A stretch of DNA of 64,000 nt from positions 93,098 through 157,097 of the forward strand of contig MGVA01000043.1 in NCBI GenBank assembly GCA_001800245.1, given 5' to 3'. Of the stretch, positions 5,183 through 37,252 are shown piece after piece (positions within the stretch are counted from its first letter, which is position 1; every line of letters starts with the position of its first letter). A program made the translations under genes and the position numbers. Under the pieces are notes generated by a model. That model saw nothing but the letters and a program-made list of their open reading frames with translations, ran no database searches and was not told the origin of the DNA. This DNA is from Elusimicrobia bacterium RIFOXYA12_FULL_51_18. Its GTDB lineage: Bacteria > Elusimicrobiota > Elusimicrobia > Elusimicrobiales > UBA9959.

Positions 5183-5296
5183 GGCTTATGACCATGCCGT
5201 AACTGCCCTGTGGGAGTGCCGCAGCAAGAGCTGTGCTCATCAAGCGGCCCGGCGCTATACGCACCAAACGGTCAAGCGCTATACGTTCAGACGGCC
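5183..5296 (-). repeat. dispersed repeat core (copy A)
   Basis: Reverse complement aligns with 19839-19930 from GGCCGTCTGA to CATAGGTC, with an internal 'CGTATAGCGC' duplication. Confidence 0.75.
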
Positions 5297-19838: not shown

Positions 19839-19955
19839 GGCCGTCTGATGCGCATAGCGCTGGGCCGCGTTGATGAGCATAGCTCTTGATGCGGCACGCC
19901 CATAGGTCAGTTACGGCATGACCATAGGTCTAATACGGCACCTACGCAGGTATTG
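19839..19955 (+). repeat. dispersed repeat core (copy B) ending in three tandem 22-nt units
   Basis: Units at 19887-19908, 19909-19930 and 19931-19952, each 'nnAT/TACGGCAYnnCCATAGGTC'-like. Confidence 0.75.
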
Positions 19956-25961: not shown

Positions 25962-27443
25962 ATGCCGGCTAAAAAAGCGGAACTTCAGGCGCCTGAGACG
26001 GCGGCGATATCGGAAGATAATCTTAAGGCTTTATTTAAAAAGACTTTCAGCGAGGAGATCGCGGACTTTACACCGCTCAAGGGCGACGCTTCCGCCCGGC
26101 GGCTGTTCAGGATAAAAAGCGCCGGGCGTTCCGTTATCGGCGCCGTGGGGCCGGATAGGCTGGAAAATACGGCCTTTGTGGAGTTCTCAAGGCATTTTAA
26201 GAAGGAAGGGCTGCCGGTGCCGGCGATCTACTCCGCGGACCTTTCAAAGAACATCTATCTGGAAGAGGACCTGGGCGACATGACCCTGTTCCAGTTCATG
26301 CTCAAGGAGCGCACCGGCCCCGATATCCCGGAATCCGTGCTGGCGGCCTATAAAAAGACCATCGACTGGCTGCCCGCTTTCCAGATGAGAGCCGGCAAGA
26401 CCCTGGATTATAAGTACTGCCATCCCCGCGACAGTTTCGATCGGCAGTCTATAATGTGGGACCTGAACTATTTCAAGTATTATTTTCTGCGCCTCTCTAA
26501 GATCCCGTTCAGCGAGCAGAAGCTGGAGGACGATTTCAACGCCCTTACCGCCTTTCTGCTGGAAGCCGACACCTCTTATTTCATTTACCGGGATTTTCAG
26601 TCCAGAAATATCATGCTCCGCGATGGTGAGCCCTCTTTTATAGATTACCAGGGAGGTCGTAAAGGGGCCTTACAGTATGACGTCGCCTCCCTGCTTTATG
26701 ACGCGAAAGCAGACTTGCCGCCGGAGACGCGGCGCGAGCTGCTGGCGCATTACCTGAAGGGCGCGGGCGCATCCGGCGTGGATAAAGCCGTTTTTATGAA
26801 GTATTTCCACGCTTACGTTTATATAAGGATAATGCAGGCGCTGGGCGCCTACGGCTTGCGCGGCTTCTATGAGGGCAAGGCGCATTTCCTTCAGAGCGTG
26901 CCTTACGCCGTCAGGAACATCGAATGGCTGCTCAGGCGGGGCGACGTGCCGGTGAAGATGCCGGAACTGACCAGGATATTTAAAAGCATGGCCGCGTCCT
27001 CTTATCTGCGTCAGTTCGGTTCCACCAAACTGGGGCTGACGGCGCGCTTGACAAGTTTTTCCTACCGCAACGGCCTACCGTCCGACGATAAAGGCCACGG
27101 CGGCGGTTTTATTTTCGACTGCCGCTTTCTCCCCAATCCCGGCCGGGAGGAAAAGTATGCCCCCTTGACCGGCAGGGACGCCGAAGTTATTTCATATCTG
27201 GCCGCCGCGCCGCAGGTCGGAGCGTTTTTGGAGAACGTGTTCAGCATCGTGGATCCGGCGGTGGAGAATTATATGTCGCGGAACTTTACGGACCTGATGA
27301 TTTCGTTCGGCTGCACCGGCGGCAGGCACCGCTCGGTTTACTGCGCCGAGCAGCTTAAAAAACATCTCGCTGAAAAATACAAAATGAGAGTGGAGCTCCA
27401 GCACCGGGAGCTTGAACCCCTCGCCAAAGAAACCCGCTTATGA
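25962..27443 (+). CDS. fusion protein: AmgK-like (APH-fold) sugar kinase + RapZ C-terminal domain
   Basis: N-terminal 'FIYRDFQSRNIML...FIDYQGG...YDVASLLYDA'; C-terminal 'FIFDCRFLPNPGRE...GCTGGRHRSVYCAEQL' matches the RapZ C-terminal domain. Confidence 0.7.
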   Translation: MPAKKAELQAPETAAISEDNLKALFKKTFSEEIADFTPLKGDASARRLFRIKSAGRSVIGAVGPDRLENTAFVEFSRHFKKEGLPVPAIYSADLSKNIYLEEDLGDMTLFQFMLKERTGPDIPESVLAAYKKTIDWLPAFQMRAGKTLDYKYCHPRDSFDRQSIMWDLNYFKYYFLRLSKIPFSEQKLEDDFNALTAFLLEADTSYFIYRDFQSRNIMLRDGEPSFIDYQGGRKGALQYDVASLLYDAKADLPPETRRELLAHYLKGAGASGVDKAVFMKYFHAYVYIRIMQALGAYGLRGFYEGKAHFLQSVPYAVRNIEWLLRRGDVPVKMPELTRIFKSMAASSYLRQFGSTKLGLTARLTSFSYRNGLPSDDKGHGGGFIFDCRFLPNPGREEKYAPLTGRDAEVISYLAAAPQVGAFLENVFSIVDPAVENYMSRNFTDLMISFGCTGGRHRSVYCAEQLKKHLAEKYKMRVELQHRELEPLAKETRL

Positions 27444-28180
27444 AAGCTATGATCCTGGCCGCCGGCCTCGGCAAACGGCTGCGGCCCCTGACCGACGCTA
27501 CGCCAAAAGCGCTGGCGGATATAGGCGGCGTGACCTTGCTTGAAGTCATCCTGCAGCGGCTTGCAAAAGCCGGCGTCACGGAAGCCATAATAAACACCCA
27601 TCATCTGGCCGAAAAATTAACCGATTTCCTGGAGAACAAACAGCGCTTAGGGCTGAAAGTCGAAATTTCCCGAGAAACGTTTTTCCCGTTGGAAACCGGC
27701 GGCGGCTTAAAAAAGGCCGCCTGGTTCTTCGGCGATGGGAAACCGTTCTTCCTGCATAATTGCGATATTTTCACCGAGCTGGACCTTTCGGCGCTGTACC
27801 AAGCCCATCTGAACGGCTGCGCCCTGGCCACTTTGGCGGTAAAGGAGCGTCCTTCAAAAAGGCAGTTGCTGTTCGCCCCGGAACTTGATCTTAAAGGCCG
27901 GTTCCTGGCGGATGGGAATATGACGGAGTGGTGCGGCGAACCAGTAAAGGACCCGCTGAAACTCGCGTTCAGCGGAGTGCAGGTCGTTTCCCCGGAAATT
28001 TTCCCGCTCATGACGGAGACCGGCGTGTTCTCTATAATGGATGTTTATCTGCGGTTGGCCGGGGCCGGTTCTAAAATAAAAGGTTTCCGCATGGACGAAT
28101 CCTACTGGCAGGACATAGGTAGCCTTGCGAAGCTGGAAGTCCTGCGCAAGTATGTCGCGGAAAAAGGAATAAGGATTTAG
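27440..28180 (+). CDS. sugar-1-phosphate nucleotidyltransferase (MurU-like)
   Basis: 'MKAMILAAGLGKRLRPLTD'; ATGA overlap with the upstream kinase fusion. Confidence 0.7.
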   Translation: MKAMILAAGLGKRLRPLTDATPKALADIGGVTLLEVILQRLAKAGVTEAIINTHHLAEKLTDFLENKQRLGLKVEISRETFFPLETGGGLKKAAWFFGDGKPFFLHNCDIFTELDLSALYQAHLNGCALATLAVKERPSKRQLLFAPELDLKGRFLADGNMTEWCGEPVKDPLKLAFSGVQVVSPEIFPLMTETGVFSIMDVYLRLAGAGSKIKGFRMDESYWQDIGSLAKLEVLRKYVAEKGIRI

Positions 28181-28288
28181 TTTGAGTGGAGGACCCCTAC
28201 CCGGTTGCGCTTTTGGGTATCTTTTGTGACAAAAGGGTCAGGTCATGAAATTTATTAAAATACAATGGGATGGTTTTTGAGAGGTAAT

Positions 28289-28672
28289 ATGGTTAAACAA
28301 TTGTTTATTTTGATCTTGATCGGGATTTCGATATGCCTTTCAGGCGGCACTTATGGTTTAGGGCCTTTCCTGCACGCTGAAGCAGTGTTGCTGGTGTTCG
28401 GCGGAACTTTTCTGCTTACGTGGGCGGCTTATCCGCTCAAAGAGATTCTACATCCATCCGGCCCTGCCCCGCTCGTATATGCCGGCGGATCTGCTATAGG
28501 CCTGGGGGTACTGGTCACACTGCTGGATTTGATGGTTGAGTTTTGGGTCGGCCCTGGAACCGCAGAACTTACGCGTCGTTTCGCGGCAGCGCTGGCCGGT
28601 CTGTTCTACGGGTTCCTGCTCTCAAAAGTCATCATAGCTCCTATTGCCGCGCGCCTTGCCGTAAGGGAGTAG
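28289..28672 (+). CDS. small membrane protein with MotA/ExbB-like C-terminal helices
   Basis: 'LAGLFYGFLLSKVIIAPIAARL' resembles the last TM pair of MotA/TolQ/ExbB channels; no MotB/ExbD partner nearby. Confidence 0.4.
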   Translation: MVKQLFILILIGISICLSGGTYGLGPFLHAEAVLLVFGGTFLLTWAAYPLKEILHPSGPAPLVYAGGSAIGLGVLVTLLDLMVEFWVGPGTAELTRRFAAALAGLFYGFLLSKVIIAPIAARLAVRE

Positions 28673-28818
28673 GGGGAGGAGAAAAGGTAACAGGAACCTT
28701 TTGTGCCCAGTAGCGGAGAGCAAGCTCCACCGTCATTCTATAGTGGAGGAGGTACACGGGGCTGGGGCGGAGGGCAAATCCCGGACAGGCCATGGCGGGG
28801 CTTCTCGCGGCGCTACCC

Positions 28819-28843
28819 CCAAAGCCAACCAGTTGCCGTTACA
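28819..28843 (+). repeat. copy of module 'CCAAAGCCAACCAGYYGCC-GTTAC'
   Basis: 17/19 identical to 35490-35508 and to the reverse complement of 33618-33636. Confidence 0.7.
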
Positions 28844-28992
28844 TAATAACTCTAAATCTGTATTTCTTTTTCTGCCATCTTTCTTTCTTCCGAATAATCC
28901 ATATTGCCGATGCTTCCCGCCAGGGAGGTCGAAAGCTGGGTTGCAAAACGGGGGTTGGCACTTTTAGGGGGGGATTTTGTAAACTTACGCTA

Positions 28993-30399
28993 ATGACTCA
29001 GCCTCGCAAAACACTCAATAAACTGCTGAAACCTTCACAGGCTATTCATGCGCTTCATCCGGAGGTTCCGAAGAACGAGGTTATCCACGCGTTGCGTGAG
29101 CGCGTCAAGGAATTGACGGCGCTTCACTCCACGGTATGCGTGCTGCAGGATGACAATCTTTCGACAAAAGAGGTGCTTGACCGCATAGTCAAGCTTATCC
29201 CGCCGGCATGGCAGTACCCGGAAATTACCTCGGGGCGCATAATCGTCGGAGACTGTGAAGGCCGGAACCGCGGCTTCAGGCGCACGCGCTGGCTGCAGGC
29301 TTGCGATTTCCGGATAAGTCCGTCCCTCTCCGGCCGTATCGAGGTTTACTACCTTAAAAAAATGCCGAAAGAGGCGGAGGGCCCGTTCCTCGCAGAGGAA
29401 CGCAATCTTATTAATTCCCTGGCCGATATGCTTCGGGTTTATTTTGAGCGCAAGTCGGCTTCGAAGGAATTGCTGGACGCGCACAACGACCTGGAACGGC
29501 GTGTGAAAGACCGCACGGCCGAACTGGAGAAGCTTAACTCCGCCCTGAAAGCCGAGATCAGAGAACGTGAGCTGCGCCAGAAGGAAATACTCTCTTATCA
29601 GGAAAAACTGCGGGGCCTCTCGGCGGAGCTCATTCTGACGGAGGAGCGCGAACGCAGGGAGATAGCCACGGACCTGCACGATATAATAGGCCAGACGCTG
29701 GCCATGGCTAAAATGAAGGCCGGCGCCCTTCGCGGCTACTGCTCCGTCCCTGAAGCGTCTTCCGAACTGAAGAATCTTTCGGGTTTTATAGACGAAGCGA
29801 TACTCGCGAGCCGTAACCTGACTTTCCAGCTGGCTTCTCCCATACTTTACGAGTTGGGCCTTGAGAGCGCGCTTGAACGCCTGGCTGCGGATACGCGCAA
29901 ACGTCAGGGTCTTGCGGTGGATTTTCACGGCGACGGCAGACGCACTTCTTTGCCTACTGAGACCAGTGTTCTGATCTTCAAGGCGGTGCGCGAACTTCTG
30001 ATGAATGCCGTGAAACACTCGAAGGCCTCGGAAGTAAAGGTGAGGATGCGCAGCGGCGGTGGCAAGATAGCTGTAACTGTGCGTGATAACGGCTGCGGTT
30101 TTAACGCCGCGGCGGCTTCGGTCTATGACGGCGATAAGGGGGGCTTCGGGCTTTTCTCCATCAGGGAAAAAGTTTCCCGCCTGGGCGGGGCCTTCCGGCT
30201 GAGTTCGCGCCGGGGTTCGGGCACGCTGGCGGTAATAACGGCGCCTCTGGAGCCTGTCCGACATAAGGCGTTCATGGCGAAACTGCCGATTTTGAAGCCG
30301 AGCCGACGCGACGCGAAACTAGCATCCTCGACTAGAGGATGTAAGTTGAGCGGCGCTAAGGCGCAGGCAAAAAGCGGCAGTTGCAGACGAAATCGCTAA
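28993..30399 (+). CDS. cytoplasmic sensor histidine kinase (HisKA_3 / NarL-partner type)
   Basis: Start at 'MTQPRK'; coiled coil; H-box 'DLHDIIGQTLA'; 'LLMNAVKHS', 'DNGCGF', 'GGFGLFS'. The last 40 or so codons are encoded by a dispersed repeat. Confidence 0.8.
   Translation: MTQPRKTLNKLLKPSQAIHALHPEVPKNEVIHALRERVKELTALHSTVCVLQDDNLSTKEVLDRIVKLIPPAWQYPEITSGRIIVGDCEGRNRGFRRTRWLQACDFRISPSLSGRIEVYYLKKMPKEAEGPFLAEERNLINSLADMLRVYFERKSASKELLDAHNDLERRVKDRTAELEKLNSALKAEIRERELRQKEILSYQEKLRGLSAELILTEERERREIATDLHDIIGQTLAMAKMKAGALRGYCSVPEASSELKNLSGFIDEAILASRNLTFQLASPILYELGLESALERLAADTRKRQGLAVDFHGDGRRTSLPTETSVLIFKAVRELLMNAVKHSKASEVKVRMRSGGGKIAVTVRDNGCGFNAAAASVYDGDKGGFGLFSIREKVSRLGGAFRLSSRRGSGTLAVITAPLEPVRHKAFMAKLPILKPSRRDAKLASSTRGCKLSGAKAQAKSGSCRRNR
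30290..30368 (+). repeat. dispersed repeat copy (modules M1-hairpin-M2) at the HK/RR junction
   Basis: 28-nt block 26/28 identical to the reverse complement of 33870-33897; central hairpin CATCCTC/GAGGATG (30323-30341). Confidence 0.7.
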
Positions 30400-30432
30400 T
30401 GTCGGACATGCTCCCAAGCAAGGATAAACGAA

Positions 30433-31080
30433 ATGGAAAAAAAGATACTGATCTGCGACGATCATAAGATATTCCGTGAAGGCCTGCGCGCCCTGCTTGA
30501 AAAACAGCCCGGCATTAAAGTGATCGGCGAGGCCAGGGACGGCATAGAGTCGGTGCGTCTGGCCAAAGAACTTTCTCCGGACATCGTCATAATGGATATT
30601 TCAATGCCCGGCCTGAACGGCATAGAGGCTTCCCGCAAACTCGCCAAAACGCGGAAAGCGGCGCGTATAATCGCTCTCTCAATGCACAACGACCGTAAGT
30701 ACGTGACGGAGATTTTCAAGGCCGGCGCGCGCGCCTACCTGTTAAAAGATTCGGCTTTTGAAGAGCTTTTGGACGCTATCAAGGCGGTGAATTGCGGCCG
30801 GTTCTTTCTGAGCGCCGGCATCACAAGCCTGGTGCTGAGCGATTATATAAAGGGGCCCGCCGGAGACCCCCGCAGTCCGTTCACTATACTTTCCGCGCGC
30901 GAAAGGGAAGTGCTGCAACTCCTGGCCGAGGGGCTGCGTACCAAGGAGATATCTCACAAATTGGACTTAAGCGTCAAGACGGTGGAAACCCACCGCAAAA
31001 AAATAATGGAAAAAATAGGGATTACTAGCATTGCCGGCCTCACCCGTTACGCGGTAAAGGAGGGTCTGGTAAGTCTGTAA
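30433..31080 (+). CDS. NarL/LuxR-family response regulator
   Basis: Receiver domain 'ILICDDH...DIVIMDISMPGLNG'; LuxR HTH 'LSAREREVLQLLAEGLRTKEISHKLDLSVKTVETHR'. Confidence 0.9.
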   Translation: MEKKILICDDHKIFREGLRALLEKQPGIKVIGEARDGIESVRLAKELSPDIVIMDISMPGLNGIEASRKLAKTRKAARIIALSMHNDRKYVTEIFKAGARAYLLKDSAFEELLDAIKAVNCGRFFLSAGITSLVLSDYIKGPAGDPRSPFTILSAREREVLQLLAEGLRTKEISHKLDLSVKTVETHRKKIMEKIGITSIAGLTRYAVKEGLVSL

Positions 31081-31160
31081 GCATAGCGTCTTTGTCCTTA
31101 TTTCTCAGGGTTCTTTGTTTTGGCCCTGTAGTCGTTCGTAAGGTTTTTCCACCATGCCGC

Positions 31161-31204
31161 TCAGGGAATCCCTGATACCCGCCATCCTCCGCAATCCCTA
31201 TAAT
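31161..31204 (+). promoter_or_regulatory. 15-bp perfect palindrome plus TATAAT box upstream of amt
   Basis: TCAGGGAATCCCTGA at 31161-31175; TATAAT at 31199-31204; no good -35, suggesting activator dependence. Confidence 0.3.
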
Positions 31205-31256
31205 TGATTAAGCGCAAAGTTGCAGCGTCAATAATCAATACGGAGGGAAATCATAT

Positions 31257-32468
31257 ATGTTCGATACCGGAAATACGGGTTTCATGCTCGTTTCGACCAG
31301 CCTCGTTATGCTCATGACCCCGGGACTTGCTTTTTTCTACGGCGGGCTTGTGGGCCGCAAGAACGTGCTGGCGATAATGATACAGAGCTTCGTTTCCATG
31401 GGCGTCACCACGGTGCTTTGGTACGCTTTCGGCTACTCACTGTGCTTCAGCGGCGGGGAGGGTGCTGTGATAGGCAACCTGGACATGGCTTTTATGCACG
31501 GCATCACGCCTACAACGGCCTTCGCCGGCTCCACCAGCATCCCGTTGCTGGTGTTCTTCGGCTACCAGATGATGTTCGCCCAAATCACCCCGGCGCTCAT
31601 CACCGGCGCGTTTACCAACCGAATTAACTTTAAGGCCTACCTGATCTTTCTGGTAGCCTGGCTGATCTTCGTTTACTTCCCCCTCTGCCACATGGTCTGG
31701 GGCGGCGGCCTTATGGCCGCGCACGGCGTGCTTGACTTCGCCGGTGGCATAGTGGTACACGCGACGGCGGGCTTCGCAGCCCTGGCCTCGGTGTTCTTCG
31801 TAGGTAAACGCAAGGTGAAAGACCAGGGCGCGCACAGCATACCGCTGGTGGCGCTTGGCACCGGCCTGCTCTGGTTCGGGTGGTACGGCTTCAATGCCGG
31901 CAGTGAATTGAAGGTGGATTCGGTGACTGCGCTCGCGTTCATCAACACCGACGTGGCGGCTTCCTTCGCCGCCATCACCTGGCTGGCCATCGCCTGGGTG
32001 CTTGAGAAGAAGCCCAAGTTCGTCGGCTTGCTGACCGGCTCCATCGCCGGTCTCGCCACCATTACCCCGGCGGCCGGCTACGTTACCACCAAGTCCGCGG
32101 TGTTCATCGGCATTCTCTCCAGCGTGGTTTGCTATATGGCGGTAAACATGAAGAACAAGATGGGCTGGGATGACGCTCTTGATGTATGGGGCGTGCACGG
32201 AGTGGGTGGAGTCCTGGGCGTGGTAATGCTCGGCGTCCTCGGCACTACAGCGGTCAACGCCGCCGGCGCCAACGGCCTGTACCATGGCGACGCCGCGTTC
32301 TTCGGCAAGCAGGTGGCGGCGGTGTTCTGCACCGCGCTTTACGCATTCCTGTTCTCTTACGCCGCTCTCTACGTCATCAATATCTTTACTCCGGTAAAGA
32401 CCGCGGAGAAGGAAGAAGAGACCGGTCTCGACGAGGCGCAGCATGGGGAAACCGCCTACCTTGCATGA
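31257..32468 (+). CDS. amt: ammonium transporter
   Basis: 'AFFYGGLV', 'DFAGGIVVHATAG', 'GWYGFNAGS', 'WGVHGVGG'. Confidence 0.9.
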   Translation: MFDTGNTGFMLVSTSLVMLMTPGLAFFYGGLVGRKNVLAIMIQSFVSMGVTTVLWYAFGYSLCFSGGEGAVIGNLDMAFMHGITPTTAFAGSTSIPLLVFFGYQMMFAQITPALITGAFTNRINFKAYLIFLVAWLIFVYFPLCHMVWGGGLMAAHGVLDFAGGIVVHATAGFAALASVFFVGKRKVKDQGAHSIPLVALGTGLLWFGWYGFNAGSELKVDSVTALAFINTDVAASFAAITWLAIAWVLEKKPKFVGLLTGSIAGLATITPAAGYVTTKSAVFIGILSSVVCYMAVNMKNKMGWDDALDVWGVHGVGGVLGVVMLGVLGTTAVNAAGANGLYHGDAAFFGKQVAAVFCTALYAFLFSYAALYVINIFTPVKTAEKEEETGLDEAQHGETAYLA

Positions 32469-32541
32469 CTAGGAGAGTCTCTAAAAGCCCGCCCGTGGGC
32501 AACTGGCGGGCTTTTGTCGGCTATTATTGAGGAGAAATATA

Positions 32542-33282
32542 ATGAAAAAATTACATATGCTGGCGTTAGTTCTTATATTCCTGGCCCCGCTGACGGCGAA
32601 TGCCACTCCTTCCACGCAGATCTGGATACCATCTACCGACATACAAAAGTATAAAACTCCGCACCTGAATGTTGATAATTACGCGGCGGTCAAAAAAGAA
32701 CCGGGTGGCCTGTGGAAAGCTCCTGTTTTTATGGCGGGACCCACCATTGGAGTGCTGCCTTACGAAAAAGTTCAGGCGGAGGCCGGGTTTGATGTGATGA
32801 GGGCGGGTTTAGCTTCGGACAGCTATCCGTTCTATTTACATGCCAAGGTCGGCACTCCGGAAAGGACTATGTTTGCCGGCTCTCCGGCGCTGGCTGTCGG
32901 CGGCTATAATTTCGGCATGAAACAAGGGGTTACCAACCAGAATATTGTTTATGGCTTGGCGGCGAAGAATCTGGCTAAGATCGGAAGGCTGTCCGCGGGT
33001 TATTACTCCGGTAACGACAATGTGCTTCTGGATGATAACGGCGACAAAGCCAACACCGGCGTGCTGCTTTCCTGGGACAGGAGCATTAGTGAAGTTTCCG
33101 ATAAGCTTTGGGCGGCGCTTGATTATCAGGGAGGGGATTCAGCTATGGGCGCCCTCAGTTTCGGCGTTTCCTGGGCATTTGCTTCCAACACGAGCGTGGT
33201 ACTCGGCTACGACGTGTATAATAACCACAAAATGTCCGGAGCCGATACTTTCACGGTTCAGTTCGATATCAATCTCTGGTAA
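32542..33282 (+). CDS. porin-like outer-membrane beta-barrel protein
   Basis: Signal peptide 'MKKLHMLALVLIFLAPLTANA'; beta-strand periodicity; C-terminal 'QFDINLW'. Confidence 0.5.
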   Translation: MKKLHMLALVLIFLAPLTANATPSTQIWIPSTDIQKYKTPHLNVDNYAAVKKEPGGLWKAPVFMAGPTIGVLPYEKVQAEAGFDVMRAGLASDSYPFYLHAKVGTPERTMFAGSPALAVGGYNFGMKQGVTNQNIVYGLAAKNLAKIGRLSAGYYSGNDNVLLDDNGDKANTGVLLSWDRSISEVSDKLWAALDYQGGDSAMGALSFGVSWAFASNTSVVLGYDVYNNHKMSGADTFTVQFDINLW

Positions 33283-33352
33283 GAAAAATATTGCCAGCGG
33301 AATGTTTGAATGAAGAATGCGGTTAAAAGTTGACGACACAAAGGAGAATGCG

Positions 33353-33538
33353 ATGAATACCAATAACACAAACAACAACCGGAATAAGAACAAGCAACAG
33401 AATCGGAACAATCAGCAGCCCCAGAACCAACAGCAGAATCAAAACCAGCGGCAGAATCCTAACCAGCAACAGGATCAGGCCCGGCAGCAAAATCAGCCGC
33501 AGCCCCAGCAGCCGAAGAAAAAGTCCTGCTGTTGCTAA
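33353..33538 (+). CDS. Gln/Asn-rich micro-protein ending in SCCC
   Basis: AAAGGAG RBS 6 nt before the ATG; 61 codons dominated by N/Q/R/K; terminator immediately downstream. Confidence 0.45.
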   Translation: MNTNNTNNNRNKNKQQNRNNQQPQNQQQNQNQRQNPNQQQDQARQQNQPQPQQPKKKSCCC

Positions 33539-33560
33539 GCTGCCAAGTTGTTTTAAATTC

Positions 33561-33592
33561 AAAAGGCCCCGCCTATAAAGCGGGGCCTTTTT
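33561..33592. terminator. bidirectional intrinsic terminator
   Basis: GGCCCCGC (33565-33572) / GCGGGGCC (33580-33587), A-run before and T-run after. Confidence 0.7.
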
Positions 33593-33599
33593 CACTTCC

Positions 33600-33930
33600 A
33601 AGTAAACAAAATATAGTGGCGGCTGGTTGGCTTTGGCGCGAGAGCCGCATGATCGCGCAGTCGGGCCGCCGGCGGGTTTTCTGCGCGCTTCGGGACCGGG
33701 TTTATGGGAATGAAAACCGGAGTCTCCCGCCGGCTTCGCAACTCGGGCAAAAGACAAGCCTATGGCAGTGCCGTATCAGGGACTGTGTCTATCAGACGGC
33801 CACCGCACTGCGGTTTCCCCTGCTGCGCCATCGCGCTGCTCAACTTACAGGTTCATTGGAGCCTGTTCGTTTCGCATCGCTTCGGCTCGGCTTCAAAAAA
33901 TAAATTCAGTTTTGGGGTATGTTGACAACC
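33600..33930 (-). ncRNA. longest copy of the modular intergenic repeat family; candidate structured RNA
   Basis: No credible ORF; contains all repeat modules in one array, nested helices (33668-33676 pairs with 33726-33734), and runs into the 33561-33592 terminator on the minus strand. Confidence 0.35.
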
Positions 33931-34394
33931 AGAACAATGGAGGCAAAACTGAAGGTTTTAAAGCAAAACACCAACCCGAAGTGAGTTGGTGAATTGCCTG
34001 TAAATTGGCGCGGTCAATGGGGGCCCCAACATAACTTTTTTGTGTTCGGCCTTCATTGGGGAAACCAGTTTTATCCCATCCTTTTCTCTTACTTTGGATC
34101 TATTTCAAATAATTGGATTTGAGCAAGGGCGAAAGGTTCCTGTCAGCCGTACCTGAAGCCGTATAAACCCATAAATTTAGAATCCGTTTAACTTAAGGGG
34201 CAAGGGGATTCGGACTGCGCGCAAAATTTATAAAACAGCCACTCTTTTTGTATCATACCGGTAAGGGGATATTTCTGCTACTTTCCGCGAAAAAATTGGG
34301 ATAAAGAAACGACTGCGCTGAAACTCCACAAAAAATATCAAAACGTACATCCAGTTGTTCTGGTAAGCTGTTGGTGAGGATTCAGGATAAGAAT

Positions 34395-35279
34395 ATGGAT
34401 TATCTAGAGCGTATTCAAAGATCGTTGGATTGGATGGAGGCCAATCTCCATGAAGATATCGGTTCGCACGAAGGAGCCCGGGAGGCATTCATGTCCCCTT
34501 GGCATTTCCACTGGGTGTTTAAGGCCATGGTGGGGGAAACTCCTGGCGATTATCTTCGCAAGCGACGATTAACAAACGCCGCGCAGGAACTCGCACACGG
34601 TGATAAAAGGATAATTGAGATAGCTATGGATCACCAGTTCGAATCCCAGGAATCCTTCAGCCGGGCTTTCAAAAAGCATGTTGGAGCGACACCTGGTCAA
34701 TACCGTATAAGCAGGCCGCTCCTTACGGTATTGTCCAAACGAATGCGTCTGACCGAACGGGAGCTCAGACACCGTACAGGAGGAATGACAATGAAACCAA
34801 AAATAGTTTCAAAAGAAGAATTCAATGTGGTCGGCATGGTGATAAAAACCACTGTAAAGGAGAATGCTGAAGGCAAGACTATCCCGAGATTGTGGGCCAG
34901 GTTCAATCCACGCGTGAAAGAGATATCTAATGTGTCCGAACGCATTTCTTACGGTATATGTCTCAACGAAAAAGGTTTTGACCCCAAAACCTTTGATGAT
35001 GTTGCGAAGTTCAATTATATGGCCGCCGTACCGGTGAAGAAACTTGCCGGGATTCCTAAAGGCATGGCACTGCGTACGATCCCGGCTCAGAAATATGCCG
35101 TATTTACCCACAAAGGTTCGCTTGATAACTTGCGGTTTACGCTGGAGTATATTTACGGAACCTGGGTAGCGAAGTGCGGATATGAACTGGCGCAGGGACC
35201 CGATTTAGAGTTGTACGACCATAGATTTAAATTCGGACAGCAGGATAGTGAGTTGGATATTTATGTCCCGGTAAAATAA
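34395..35279 (+). CDS. AraC-family transcriptional regulator with GyrI-like effector-binding domain
   Basis: AraC HTH 'FMSPWHFHWVFKAMVGETPGDYLRKRRL...SQESFSRAFKKHVGATPGQYR'; C-terminal GyrI-like half; ATG at 34395 preceded by AGGA. Confidence 0.85.
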   Translation: MDYLERIQRSLDWMEANLHEDIGSHEGAREAFMSPWHFHWVFKAMVGETPGDYLRKRRLTNAAQELAHGDKRIIEIAMDHQFESQESFSRAFKKHVGATPGQYRISRPLLTVLSKRMRLTERELRHRTGGMTMKPKIVSKEEFNVVGMVIKTTVKENAEGKTIPRLWARFNPRVKEISNVSERISYGICLNEKGFDPKTFDDVAKFNYMAAVPVKKLAGIPKGMALRTIPAQKYAVFTHKGSLDNLRFTLEYIYGTWVAKCGYELAQGPDLELYDHRFKFGQQDSELDIYVPVK

Positions 35280-35489
35280 CCCCGGCCCCGGAAGAGATCA
35301 CCCGGCGGACCCCGCGAGCCTCACAAGTAAAACGTCAGACTTCTATCGAAAGATAGATGTGTCTTAAATATGGGCGGGATTGTTGTTAACAATTTAAGGA
35401 AGTGGCGAGTAACGGGCTAAAGGACCATCAAGTGCGTAAGTTTTACGCGGGGTGACAGGCCCTCGCTTTGCTATCCTGCGATGCTCAAG

Positions 35490-35513
35490 CCAAAGCCAAC
35501 CAGCCGCCGTTAC
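35490..35513 (+). repeat. copy of module 'CCAAAGCCAACCAGCCGCC-GTTAC'
   Basis: Exact reverse complement of 33618-33636; overlaps the stop codon of the minus-strand TPR gene. Confidence 0.75.
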
Positions 35514-37252
35514 TTATTTTTTTTCTGCAGGGTTTCTAATCTTTCAAGGTTTAGGGCGGCGTTGCGGGAATCTGGGGATAGCTTTAGTGCCCTTTCAAAT
35601 AATCCTTTAGCCTCGGGGTAGCGGCCGTTATTGGCATAAATAATGCCGGTGTCGTTCATGGCTTGCGGATTATAAGGGTCTAGGCGCAGCAAAGTTTCAT
35701 ATACGGCCAGCGCTTCGATTTCTTTTTTCTGCCGCAGATAAAGCCCGGCCAGCGTAGTGTGGGCCGGCTCATTGCCAGGCGCGGACTCAATGGCGCGCTT
35801 CAGATCGCGTTCCGCCCCGGTAAGATCGCCCCCTTCTATAAGGAAGCACGCCTTGTTCACCAGAGCCTCGGAATTATCAGGATGCCGGGTAAGCAGGCGG
35901 TCCAATACCGCCTCTGCCCCGGTCTTGTCTCCGGTCTTCCAGAGGCTCAGCGCCAGGCCGTTCAGGTAAAGCGGGTTGTCGGGGTCCAGGCTTGAGACGC
36001 GCGTCAGGATGGCCCGGCTCTTTTCAAACTGCCCGGCCAGATAATACTCCCGCGCCAGATTGTAGAGCATGGGCTTTGAGCTGGAATAGCGTGCGGCGTG
36101 TTCGTAGATCCTGAGGTCCGTTGAGCGCAAACGGATGTTCGCATTGGCGGCCGCCAGCCAGAAAACAACCAGTCCCCCGGCGCAAACACCGGCCGCCGCT
36201 TTTTTGAGGTTGCCGCCTTCAAACAGGCGCGCGGCTATAACCGCCGCGGCCGCGTAAAGCCCTAGGTTTGAGAGATATGTCCAGTGTTCCAGCATCAGGT
36301 CGCCTCCGGCCAGGAGCGGAAACTTCGGCGCGAGGCTGAGAACATACCAGCCGAAAGCGAGAATTATAGCGCGCGGATTGTATTTCAGCAGGCCGAACAG
36401 GAAGGCGGCCCAAAGGGCATAGACCGCGTAAAACCATGGCGCGAAATCGGGCTGCATACGGTGGGAGTGCATATTGAGCGGGAGAAAAGCGTTCTTAATA
36501 TAGACGATTATTGCAGGCGGGATTTTTTTGCCGGCCTGGAACAAAAATGCCGCCGCGCCGGTATCAAAAGGCCCCGCGCCGGTCGCGGCGTGCCTGAGCC
36601 AGAGATAAAAAGGAATGGGTAAAAGAAAAGGCAGCAGTTTCAGATATTCCCGTTTGTCCTTCCCAAGGAACCAGAGTGAGAGCGCCGTCAGCAACGGCGT
36701 AATGATCCCGTTCTCCTTGAAACCCAAAGCCATCAGGAACGTCGTAAACGAAAGCGCGTAGCTCCGCCTTAAAAAAAACAGCACGGAAGCCAGCGTGAAA
36801 GCGGAAGAAGCCAGTTCCGCCCTGCCCGCCACTATTATCAGCTGCTCTATGCCTGTCGGGTTGACGGCGAAGAATAGCGCCGTCAGCGAAGCGGCGGCCG
36901 AGCCCAGTCCCAATTCCGCCATAAGCAGGAACGCCAGCAGCGTTGCGGCGGAGTGGAATAGCAGATTGGTCAGGTGATAGCCGAAAGGGTTCAGCCGCCA
37001 GACGGAAAAATCCGCCATATTGCTCAAGGTCTGGAAGGGGCGGTAATAATTAAGGGCCTGGTTGAACGGGTCGGAAAAAAAAGCGTGCCGGAGGTTGGCA
37101 AGGGTCCAGGCTTTTACATAAGGATTAGCTTCTATGAACTGGTGGTCGTCCCAGATGAAGCCCAGTCCCAGAGTGGCGCCGTACGCCGCCGCGGCGGTCA
37201 GTGCGAGGCACGCCGCCAGGATCTTTTTTTTATGCTTGGCCGGTATTTCCAT
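35510..37252 (-). CDS. polytopic membrane protein with C-terminal TPR repeats (PMT/GT-C-like + TPR)
   Basis: N-terminal 'FIWDDHQFIEANPYV' and about 10 TM helices; C-terminal TPR units ('YLAGQFEKSRAIL...', 'ALKLSPDSRNA'). Confidence 0.7.
   Translation of the reverse strand: MEIPAKHKKKILAACLALTAAAAYGATLGLGFIWDDHQFIEANPYVKAWTLANLRHAFFSDPFNQALNYYRPFQTLSNMADFSVWRLNPFGYHLTNLLFHSAATLLAFLLMAELGLGSAAASLTALFFAVNPTGIEQLIIVAGRAELASSAFTLASVLFFLRRSYALSFTTFLMALGFKENGIITPLLTALSLWFLGKDKREYLKLLPFLLPIPFYLWLRHAATGAGPFDTGAAAFLFQAGKKIPPAIIVYIKNAFLPLNMHSHRMQPDFAPWFYAVYALWAAFLFGLLKYNPRAIILAFGWYVLSLAPKFPLLAGGDLMLEHWTYLSNLGLYAAAAVIAARLFEGGNLKKAAAGVCAGGLVVFWLAAANANIRLRSTDLRIYEHAARYSSSKPMLYNLAREYYLAGQFEKSRAILTRVSSLDPDNPLYLNGLALSLWKTGDKTGAEAVLDRLLTRHPDNSEALVNKACFLIEGGDLTGAERDLKRAIESAPGNEPAHTTLAGLYLRQKKEIEALAVYETLLRLDPYNPQAMNDTGIIYANNGRYPEAKGLFERALKLSPDSRNAALNLERLETLQKKNK

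What the first reader, a model, noticed from the sequence alone, without database searches (positions are those of the whole stretch)
33618..35508. Perfect 19-bp inverted repeats bracket a 1.9-kb AT-richer segment carrying an AraC/GyrI-like regulator
GGCGGCTGGTTGGCTTTGG (33618-33636) is the exact reverse complement of CCAAAGCCAACCAGCCGCC (35490-35508). A third copy with two mismatches sits at 28819-28837. The bracketed 1891 bp holds the long repeat element, about 440 nt of visibly AT-richer non-coding DNA (33931-34394) and the araC/gyrI-like gene. That gene also looks less GC-rich than its neighbours. No transposase or integrase is present. I see no target-site duplication; the flanks are AAATATAGT on one side and GTTACTTAT on the other. 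The right repeat overlaps the stop codon of the convergent TPR gene. This could be a non-autonomous cargo-carrying element, a recombination scar, or two chance-opposed copies of the repeat family.
Basis: seen in the sequence. Interest (0 to 1): 0.55.

Follow-up and report, generated by a model that had tools for sequence, protein, structure and literature searches.

The report
Local repeats at joints of an inserted gene islet
The perfect 19-bp inverted repeats are real and not chance, but they are two of three local copies of a ~70-nt repeat inside a 7.3-kb patchwork of inserted DNA in an uncultured Elusimicrobia genome, and nothing shows that the 1.9 kb between them moves as a unit.

Summary
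GGCGGCTGGTTGGCTTTGG (33618-33636) has an exact reverse complement at 35490-35508 and a 2-mismatch copy at 28819-28837; none is expected by chance.

Each 19-mer is the conserved core of a ~70-nt unit. All three units lie within 6.7 kb, and none occurs in the other 75.8 kb of this contig, in relatives, or in two public DNA collections.

The window comes from Elusimicrobia bacterium RIFOXYA12_FULL_51_18. In two relatives the TPR gene directly abuts an NTP-transferase gene. Window 28181-35509 is therefore a lineage-specific 7.3-kb islet.

The IR-bounded 1.9 kb is a mosaic:
- a 61% GC pile-up of small repeats;
- a conserved non-coding piece also found in a relative's genome;
- a low-GC Rob-like araC/GyrI gene;
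- a unique spacer.

The only close araC relative sits in another context without the repeats. Its 87% nucleotide homology covers only 34309-35284 and stops short of both repeats. I found no target-site duplication, no recombinase within about 10 kb, and no presence/absence variant.

Copies B and C are direct repeats, and C's flank resembles the last TPR codons, which looks att-like.

Best reading: these are insertion or recombination-site remnants at the joints of a mosaic islet, with araC as an acquired passenger. A cargo transposon or an invertible segment is not excluded. Interest is modest.

The parts
33606..33675 (+). Repeat unit A, with its 19-mer core at 33618-33636. It lies 14 nt after the terminator of the QN-peptide gene.
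   Evidence: (nhmmer E 9e-16)
35451..35520 (-). Repeat unit B, with its 19-mer core at 35490-35508, an exact reverse complement of A. It starts 1 nt after the TPR stop codon (35510-35512). Its outer 12 nt are the last TPR codons.
   Evidence: (E 9e-17)
28780..28849 (-). Repeat unit C, with its core at 28819-28837 (2 mismatches, GG to AA). It is a direct repeat of B and an inverted repeat of A. It lies about 125 nt upstream of the conserved histidine-kinase block.
   Evidence: D3, I4; E 9e-16
28850..28895 (-). Flank of C that resembles the last ~12 codons of TPR, including the TAA-C junction with the core. It may be a decayed duplicate of the TPR 3' end (suggestive only).
   Evidence: 0.2% of all 68-nt windows and 2% of A-rich windows score as well
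28181..35509 (.). Lineage-specific 7.3-kb islet between the NTP-transferase stop and the TPR stop. It is absent in relatives L052/L053/L054 (167-bp spacer) and L117 (19-bp spacer).
28974..33282 (+). Four-gene block: histidine kinase, LuxR-type response regulator, ammonium transporter and a porin-like protein. It is ~80% nt identical to L118 and L122, where it sits in other contexts.
30249..30419 (.). A 171-nt MITE-like insertion with 19-nt terminal inverted repeats between the kinase and regulator genes. It is absent in L118 and L122. Its core recurs at 33823-33898.
   Evidence: I3, I6; I5
33637..33900 (.). GC-rich (61%) pile-up of small repeat modules next to unit A. 33823-33898 is the MITE core. 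33757-33803 is related to the 5187/19870 family. 33677-33743 is related to a sequence just beyond the window (L125 20874-20940).
33985..34225 (-). Conserved non-coding piece inside the AT-rich stretch, 73-79% identical to an intergenic region of L118. It has a minus-strand terminator-like hairpin at 33991-33969.
34309..35284 (+). Tract shared at 87% nt with contig L057: 86 bp upstream plus the araC/GyrI (Rob-like) gene at 34395-35279. This is the only part of the IR-bounded segment found elsewhere with the gene.
35285..35450 (.). Unique 166-nt spacer between araC and unit B, with no match anywhere.
35510..37252 (-). TPR membrane protein gene (A2270_09845). Its upstream synteny is conserved in relatives, but its 3' flank differs between the five relatives examined (four different neighbours).

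Best explanation
The two 19-mers are the best-conserved cores of a local ~70-nt repeat with three copies, all inside one lineage-specific 7.3-kb islet. The islet was inserted between the convergent NTP-transferase and TPR genes of an uncultured Elusimicrobia bacterium.

The repeats are most likely remnants of the sites used, or generated, when DNA modules were inserted next to the TPR 3' end. These could be att-like or terminal sequences. Copies B and C are direct repeats that flank 6.6 kb, and C carries a decayed copy of the TPR 3' end, as attL/attR pairs do. Copy A is an inverted extra copy at the joint between the nitrogen-operon module and the araC module.

The Rob-like araC/GyrI gene is a horizontally acquired passenger of this mosaic. 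It is not the cargo of a discrete element bounded by the inverted repeats.

Shown: the repeats, their clustering, the absence of the islet in relatives, the mosaic interior, and the limits of the araC homology.
Inferred: that the repeats are insertion or recombination sites, and the order of events.
For: - The repeats are real and non-random.
- All three copies align over 70 nt without gaps, and no further copy scores better than E 0.6 in the window.
- No copy occurs in 18.4 kb of additional sequence from the same contig, in 15 loci from relatives, or beyond single chance hits in unrelated taxa in GTDB genomes and JGI metagenomes. Three copies within 6.7 kb of 82.5 kb has P about 0.02 if placement were uniform.
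- Two relatives (TPR 74-75% aa) have NTP-transferase 167 bp or 19 bp after the TPR stop, so 28181-35509 is an insertion. Other relatives carry other genes after TPR, which marks this junction as variable.
- The kinase-to-porin block is conserved at ~80% nt in L118 and L122, but elsewhere in those genomes.
- B and C are direct repeats (27 nt at 89%, D3; 63 nt at 73%). C's outer flank resembles the TPR 3' end, including the TAA-C junction.
- araC has low GC and GC3, about 1.8 sd below the gene mean. It has one homologue at 86% aa and the next at 48%, whereas TPR has a graded series of orthologues. Its 87% nt homology to L057 covers only 34309-35284.
Against: - The repeat units do not sit exactly at the edges of the homology blocks. 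They lie 125-690 nt away from them.
- The left edge of the 7.3-kb islet (28181) carries no copy.
- Copy A is inverted relative to B and C. Simple tandem accretion at one att site does not predict this.
- No integrase or transposase lies within about 10 kb, and none was found among the low-GC ORFs tested.
- The similarity between C's flank and the TPR end is A-rich and only moderately significant.
- A and B are identical over exactly 19 nt while their flanks have decayed. This suggests ongoing selection on a functional site rather than an inert scar.
- Only 82.5 kb of the genome could be examined.
Confidence: 0.45

Rival explanations
1. A and B are the terminal inverted repeats of a non-autonomous, cargo-carrying transposon, comparable to a mobile insertion cassette. 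It would carry araC and be mobilised in trans by a transposase encoded elsewhere in the genome. C would be a solo end.
For: - The inverted pair is a perfect 19/19, whereas C has 2 mismatches.
- The segment has a passenger gene of foreign composition and no transposase.
- araC has a patchy distribution.
- Elements of this kind are documented elsewhere (PMC4337579, PMC5444012).
Against: - There is no target-site duplication: the flanks are ...TATAGT and GTTACT....
- Similarity continues outward past the 19-mer, so there is no sharp terminus.
- The interior is a mosaic, including a pile-up of other small repeats and a piece of chromosomal non-coding DNA shared with a relative.
- The only close araC homologue lacks the repeats, and its homology ends 690 nt short of A and 205 nt short of B.
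- No second IR-bounded cargo and no cognate IS was found in 82.5 kb, in plasmid or phage records, or in public contigs.
Confidence: 0.15
2. The three units are ordinary members of a genome-wide family of small intergenic repeats (REP- or MITE-like). Two of them simply landed in opposite orientation on either side of araC. The pairing has no meaning.
For: - The genome clearly carries several small repeat families: the 171-nt MITE-like insertion at 30249-30419, the 5187/19870 family, and the modules in 33637-33900.
- A relative has a Y1-transposase gene flanked by hairpin repeats, with a further hairpin upstream of its kinase gene.
- All three units are intergenic.
Against: - All three copies lie within 6.7 kb, with none in the remaining 75.8 kb sampled (P about 0.02).
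- The unit is not palindromic and shows no conserved hairpin.
- The B/C similarity extends into the TPR coding end.
Confidence: 0.15
3. The 19-mers are recombination sites of a site-specific invertase. The 1.9-kb segment would flip, changing what is transcribed towards or away from araC and the TPR 3' end.
For: - The inverted repeats are perfect and of a length typical for invertase sites. Perfect identity of the cores with decayed flanks is what repeated recombination inside the core would maintain.
- A promoter-like site (TTTTCA-17-TATAGT) ends exactly at the left core.
Against: - No invertase lies within about 10 kb.
- All retrievable contigs of this strain have the same orientation.
- A short-read contig runs 63 nt past the inner edge of copy B without a branch there.
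- Promoter-like matches are no more frequent than in shuffles.
- 1.9 kb with a whole regulator gene is atypical.
- The third copy is unexplained.
Confidence: 0.05
4. The unit is a cis-acting sequence rather than a recombination site. It could be a protein-binding site or a transcribed element. For example, in a transcript running from A to B the two cores could pair as a 19-bp long-range stem enclosing the araC mRNA.
For: - A strongly conserved 14-19-nt core with decaying flanks is typical of a binding site.
- Units A and B each lie directly downstream of a gene on the same strand.
- There is a promoter-like -10 just upstream of A and a T-run just after B on the + strand.
Against: - There is no Rfam match.
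- Folding z-scores are between -0.8 and -1.2.
- The three copies share no hairpin.
- The unit is absent from all relatives, including those that keep the same operon.
- By my own inspection of the sequence, not a tool result, it does not resemble a mar/sox/rob box or a sigma-54 promoter.
Confidence: 0.1

Closest known systems
Mobile insertion cassettes (MICs) and cargo-carrying MITE-like elements (e.g. the Tn3-family MICs of Xanthomonas, PMC4337579; the qnrS2 MIC of Aeromonas, PMC5444012)
   Same: Inverted repeats bracket a passenger gene of foreign composition, and no transposase lies between them.
   Different: - There is no target-site duplication.
- No cognate IS is known.
- Similarity runs outward past the repeat.
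- The interior is a mosaic.
- The passenger's only close homologue lacks the repeats.
- No second copy or empty site was found.
att-flanked islets without recombination genes (cis-mobilisable elements, decayed integrative elements); named from my own knowledge of the ICE/IME literature, not checked here
   Same: - Direct repeats (B and C) flank 6.6 kb of cargo next to the 3' end of a gene.
- The distal repeat carries a decayed copy of that gene's end.
- Relatives have an uninterrupted junction.
- There is no integrase inside.
   Different: - The edge of the insertion seen in relatives (28181) does not coincide with C (28849).
- A third, inverted copy lies inside.
- The cargo includes an ordinary chromosomal nitrogen operon.
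- No cognate integrase is known.
- The duplication of the TPR end is only suggestive.
Invertible DNA segments (invertons; Hin/Gin/Fim-type switches)
   Same: Short perfect inverted repeats flank a DNA segment.
   Different: - No invertase lies nearby.
- No second orientation was seen.
- The segment holds a whole gene plus unrelated repeats.
Integron gene cassettes (the C-terminal domain matches Pfam Cass2, first described from a Vibrio cassette, PMC3048380)
   Same: - The gene-sized araC tract shared with L057 starts about 86 nt before the ORF and ends 5 nt after it, so it is cassette-like in size.
- GTTAC follows the core in B and C.
   Different: - There is no intI gene and no attC-type imperfect palindrome.
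- GTTAC(T/A)T does not fit GTTRRRY.
- The repeats are 1.9 kb apart, not part of one attC site.
E. coli Rob (AraC-type HTH plus GyrI-like domain), for the gene itself
   Same: The two-domain architecture is the same. The protein matches Rob structures 1d5y and 7vwy at E about 1e-17 over residues 6-274.
   Different: The relationship is distant. Its ligand and regulon are unknown.

Membership tests
Mobile insertion cassette / non-autonomous cargo transposon | Terminal inverted repeats at both ends | tested here: met
   19/19 perfect, and 53 nt at 75%.
Mobile insertion cassette / non-autonomous cargo transposon | Direct target-site duplication flanking the ends | tested here: not met
   The flanks are AAATATAGT and GTTACTTAT. 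The outward similarity is inverted, not direct.
Mobile insertion cassette / non-autonomous cargo transposon | Ends match those of a cognate autonomous IS or transposon | not testable with these tools
   No transposase was found in the 82.5 kb available. There were no matches in plasmids or phages.
Mobile insertion cassette / non-autonomous cargo transposon | Evidence of movement as a unit (other copies, empty sites, same cargo with the same ends elsewhere) | tested here: not met
   The araC homologue on L057 lacks the repeats, and its homology is limited to 34309-35284. No other pair was found. The gene sits on the same 6 contigs as its neighbours.
att-flanked integrated islet | Direct repeats at both ends, one overlapping the 3' end of the target gene | tested here: inconclusive
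   B and C are direct (27 nt at 89%; 63 nt at 73%). C's flank resembles the TPR end, at P about 0.002-0.02.
att-flanked integrated islet | Uninterrupted site in relatives, with edges coinciding with the repeats | tested here: inconclusive
   Relatives lack all of 28181-35509. The right edge coincides with B. The left edge lies 640 nt beyond C.
att-flanked integrated islet | Cognate tyrosine or serine recombinase | tested here: not met
   None lies within 25.5-47.2 kb of the window, and none was found among the low-GC ORFs. The rest of the genome was not examined.
Inverton | Both orientations present in a population | tested here: inconclusive
   Three long contigs all have the same orientation. 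Nine similar contigs were collapsed by the tool and not inspected. No read data were available.
Inverton | Invertase gene adjacent | tested here: not met
Integron cassette | attC site (paired R''/L'' and L'/R' boxes, GTTRRRY) and an intI integrase | tested here: not met
   The unit is not palindromic. GTTACTT and GTTACAT do not fit GTTRRRY. There is no integrase.
Known RNA family | Match to an Rfam covariance model, or a conserved structure | tested here: not met
   There were no hits at the gathering threshold or at E up to 5. Folding z-scores were -0.8 to -1.2.

The most novel reading that the evidence does not exclude
The 19-mer could be the recognition site of an unlinked recombinase or transposase. 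That enzyme would assemble, invert or move gene modules next to the 3' end of the TPR gene in this Elusimicrobia lineage. The system would be transposase-less and repeat-bounded, with the araC module as its most recent acquisition, and with site sequences unlike any described element.
Probability: 0.1. Interest if true: 0.5.

Novelty: new member of a known kind. Interest (0 to 1): 0.25.

Why it matters
If the best reading is right, this is a small, well-delimited example of how a genome from an uncultured phylum builds a patchwork islet at one junction. It combines a relocated nitrogen-sensing operon, an acquired drug- or ligand-sensing regulator, and several kinds of small repeats.

That is useful as annotation. 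It corrects a truncated araC gene call and flags the TPR 3' flank as a variable site. It is not surprising.

It would matter more if the 19-mer proved to be the site of a new recombination system. That would give a handle on gene mobility in Elusimicrobia, for which no mobile-element biology has been established experimentally.

Tried and rejected
- **Exact-pattern scans.** I scanned GTDB species genomes and JGI metagenomes for CCAAAGCCAACCAGYYGCC. Both returned only single hits in unrelated taxa, with no extended similarity. The source genome is in neither collection, so a genome-wide census was impossible.
- **Fourth copy at the left edge of the islet.** I looked for a degenerate copy in 28175-28270. 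Nothing was significant.
- **Rfam and folding.** Rfam at the gathering and the permissive threshold, and folding of both strands of the repeat regions, gave nothing.
- **Strain variation.** The one divergent contig (L050) is identical across the whole region and diverges only beyond ~40000, so it is uninformative.
- **More distant TPR relative.** L126 (68%) has lost synteny on both sides and is uninformative.
- **Plasmid and phage BLAST.** Only chance-level hits, or none.
- **Mar/sox/rob box and sigma-54 promoter.** I compared the core with both by eye and saw no fit. This is my own inspection, not a tool result.
- **Coding potential.** All three copies translate as PKPTS(R/C)(R/H)Y on one strand and GGWLAL on the other. 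I treat this as a consequence of nucleotide identity, because no ORF or Pfam match supports coding.
Full report
**Observation**

GGCGGCTGGTTGGCTTTGG lies at 33618-33636. Its exact reverse complement lies at 35490-35508, and a copy with two mismatches lies at 28819-28837 in the same orientation as the right copy. In 100 dinucleotide-preserving shuffles the expected number of matches at up to 3 mismatches is 0.04, and no shuffle gave three. The repeats are therefore related by descent.

Similarity extends beyond the 19-mer. The inverted pair matches over 53 nt at 75% (I2). The two direct copies match over 63 nt at 73%. All three copies align over 70 nt without gaps: 12 AT-rich nt outside, the 19-nt core, and about 24-39 decaying nt inside.

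Two details of the finding need correction.
- The 19-mer stops 1 nt short of the TPR stop codon (35510-35512). Only the extended similarity overlaps the stop.
- The bracketed segment is compositionally heterogeneous. GC is 61% for 33618-33900, 41.5% for 33901-34394, 46.9% for araC and 52% for 35280-35489.

**Source and distribution**

Exact protein matches identify the window as Elusimicrobia bacterium RIFOXYA12_FULL_51_18, a groundwater metagenome-assembled genome. The TPR gene is A2270_09845.

A profile of the 70-nt unit finds only the three copies in the window, each at E about 1e-16. The next best hit has E 0.6. There is no copy in 18.4 kb of additional sequence from the same contig. There is none in 15 loci from related Elusimicrobia.

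Exact-pattern scans of GTDB species genomes and JGI metagenomes returned only single hits in unrelated taxa, with no extended similarity. The source genome itself is in neither collection.

Three copies within 6.7 kb of the 82.5 kb sampled has a probability of about 0.02 under uniform placement. The repeat is therefore local and low-copy as far as can be seen.

**Synteny**

Upstream of TPR, the methyltransferase, S6-SSB-S18-L9, DnaB, Alr and Mla genes are conserved in relatives. Downstream of TPR the neighbours vary.
- In relative L052/L053/L054 (TPR 74% aa), the NTP-transferase/APH gene pair converges on TPR after a 167-bp spacer with no 19-mer. In the window this pair lies at 25962-28180.
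- In L117 (75%), the same NTP-transferase follows TPR after 19 bp.
- L055, L115 and L116 each have a different gene after TPR.

Window 28181-35509 is therefore a lineage-specific 7.3-kb islet at a variable junction. It contains:
- a small membrane-protein gene;
- unit C;
- the histidine kinase, LuxR-type regulator, ammonium transporter and porin-like genes;
- the QN-rich ORF and its terminator;
- unit A;
- the araC module;
- unit B.

The four-gene block (28974-33282) is ~80% nt identical to blocks in L118 (Elusimicrobia GWF2_52_66) and L122. There it sits in quite different neighbourhoods.

**Anatomy of the IR-bounded 1.9 kb**

The segment is a mosaic.
- **33637-33900** is a GC-rich pile-up of other small repeats. 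33823-33898 copies the core of a 171-nt MITE-like element with 19-nt terminal repeats. In this genome that element has inserted between the kinase and regulator genes (30249-30419), and it is absent from the orthologous operons. 33757-33803 is related to the 5187/19870 repeat family. 33677-33743 resembles a sequence just beyond the window.
- **About 33985-34225** is 73-79% identical to an intergenic region of L118.
- **34309-35284** holds 86 bp of upstream sequence plus the araC gene. It is 87% identical to contig L057. The homology ends 5 nt after the stop codon.
- **35285-35450** matches nothing.

The tract shared with the only close araC relative therefore stops 690 nt short of unit A and 205 nt short of unit B. 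L057 has no copy of the 19-mer at up to 4 mismatches. On L057 the gene lies between an AAA_14 ATPase gene and an acetyltransferase gene, in a low-GC stretch next to tRNA-Val.

**The gene**

The 294-aa product has an AraC-type HTH and a GyrI-like/Cass2 effector-binding domain. It aligns over nearly its full length with E. coli Rob (1d5y, 7vwy). The Cass2 module was described as a cationic-drug-binding fold (PMC3048380).

Its GC (46.9%) and GC3 (50.5%) are about 1.8 sd below the gene means of the window. Its homologues drop from 86% to 48% identity. TPR and the porin-like protein, by contrast, have graded series of orthologues. Horizontal acquisition is the simplest reading.

The public annotation calls only the C-terminal 162 aa, although the full ORF is intact.

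**Tests of the cargo-element reading**

- There is no target-site duplication.
- Similarity continues outward past the cores, so there is no sharp terminus.
- No other ORF between the repeats has a Pfam match.
- No recombinase or transposase lies within about 10 kb on either side, and none was found among the low-GC ORFs of the window.
- araC, TPR and the porin-like protein are each recorded on the same number of contigs (6), so no presence/absence variant is visible.
- All retrievable contigs of the strain are collinear with the window.
- One short-read contig ends at 35427, 63 nt inside the inner edge of unit B. An inversion or excision branch would not fall there.

**What the three copies suggest instead**

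B and C are direct repeats. In both, the core is preceded by TAA-C. C's outward flank (28850-28895, minus strand) aligns with the last ~12 TPR codons, with two indels. Only 0.2% of all 68-nt windows, and 2% of A-rich ones, score as well. The similarity is also in register with the repeat.

A gene end duplicated at the far side of inserted DNA is the signature of integration at an att site that overlaps a gene's 3' end. The non-functional copy would then decay. This fits the absence of the region in relatives.

It is incomplete in three ways. The islet's left edge lies 640 nt beyond C. Copy A is inverted. No recombinase is known.

I therefore commit to the following, at about 45%. The units are remnants of insertion or recombination sites at the joints of a stepwise-assembled mosaic islet. 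araC is a passenger. The A/B inverted pair is not the boundary of a discrete mobile unit.

The perfect identity of the A and B cores against decayed flanks is the main fact that this reading does not explain well. It keeps the functional-site rivals alive: a cargo transposon at 15%, a cis-acting site at 10%, and an inverton at 5%. A dispersed repeat family whose copies merely cluster here remains possible at 15%, because only 82.5 kb of the genome could be examined.

**Comparison with known systems**

The arrangement works most like either a mobile insertion cassette (PMC4337579, PMC5444012) or an att-flanked islet that has lost its recombination genes. It meets the superficial criteria of each: inverted repeats with cargo and no transposase, or direct repeats next to a gene end. 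It fails or leaves open the defining criteria: target-site duplication, cognate enzyme, and movement as a unit.

It is not an integron cassette, not a known RNA, and not a demonstrated inverton.

**Verdict**

It is most probably an ordinary product of repeat-associated insertion in a variable genomic junction. Interest is 0.25.

The decisive work is a census of the unit in the full assembly, retrieval of the closer relatives (P0346, P0344/P0345), and read-level tests for flipped or empty junctions.

Noticed in passing
window 30249-30419: A 171-nt MITE-like insertion with 19-nt terminal inverted repeats (GGAGCCTGTCCGACATAAG) separates the histidine-kinase and response-regulator genes. These genes abut in the orthologous operons of L118 and L122. 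The insertion extends the kinase ORF by about 45 residues.
   Followed up: partly
window 33969-34225 (minus strand): A conserved non-coding piece, 73-79% identical to an intergenic region of L118 (15448-15653). It has a terminator-like hairpin at 33991-33969, and L118 has a different hairpin at the same position. It may be a small RNA divergent from araC. The overall folding z-score is only -0.5.
   Followed up: partly
window 33317-33592: A 73-aa Q/N-rich ORF ending in KKKSCCC, followed by a clean intrinsic terminator (33565-33592). The nucleotide homology to L118 and L122 ends at the porin-like stop codon, so this ORF appears specific to this lineage.
   Followed up: no
window 34395-35279: The public annotation (OGS07556.1, A2270_09840) calls only the C-terminal 162 aa. 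The 294-aa ORF with the AraC HTH domain is intact.
   Followed up: yes
L118 3239-4074 and 6239-6294: In relative GWF2_52_66 a Y1-transposase gene (IS200/RAYT-like) is flanked by inverted hairpin repeats. A third copy of the hairpin lies just upstream of the histidine-kinase gene, at a position comparable to unit C in the window.
   Followed up: no
L057 3848-4077: The araC homologue lies in a low-GC stretch next to tRNA-Val. A second copy of the tRNA 3' end (CAAATCCTGTACCGC) lies about 150 nt downstream. This looks like the edge of an integrated island.
   Followed up: no
L050 against window 25510-47253: This contig from another assembly is 100% identical to the window up to about 40000 and then 5-6% divergent. 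It is either a strain chimera or a recent recombination tract that includes the islet.
   Followed up: partly
window 5187-5243 and 19870-19926: A 57-nt inverted pair (88%) of another intergenic repeat family. A truncated relative lies at 33757-33803 inside the IR-bounded segment.
   Followed up: partly
proteins P0346, P0344, P0345: Closer relatives exist in public assemblies: a TPR protein about 91% identical, and araC fragments about 90% identical, on contigs of 3-28 kb.
   Followed up: no
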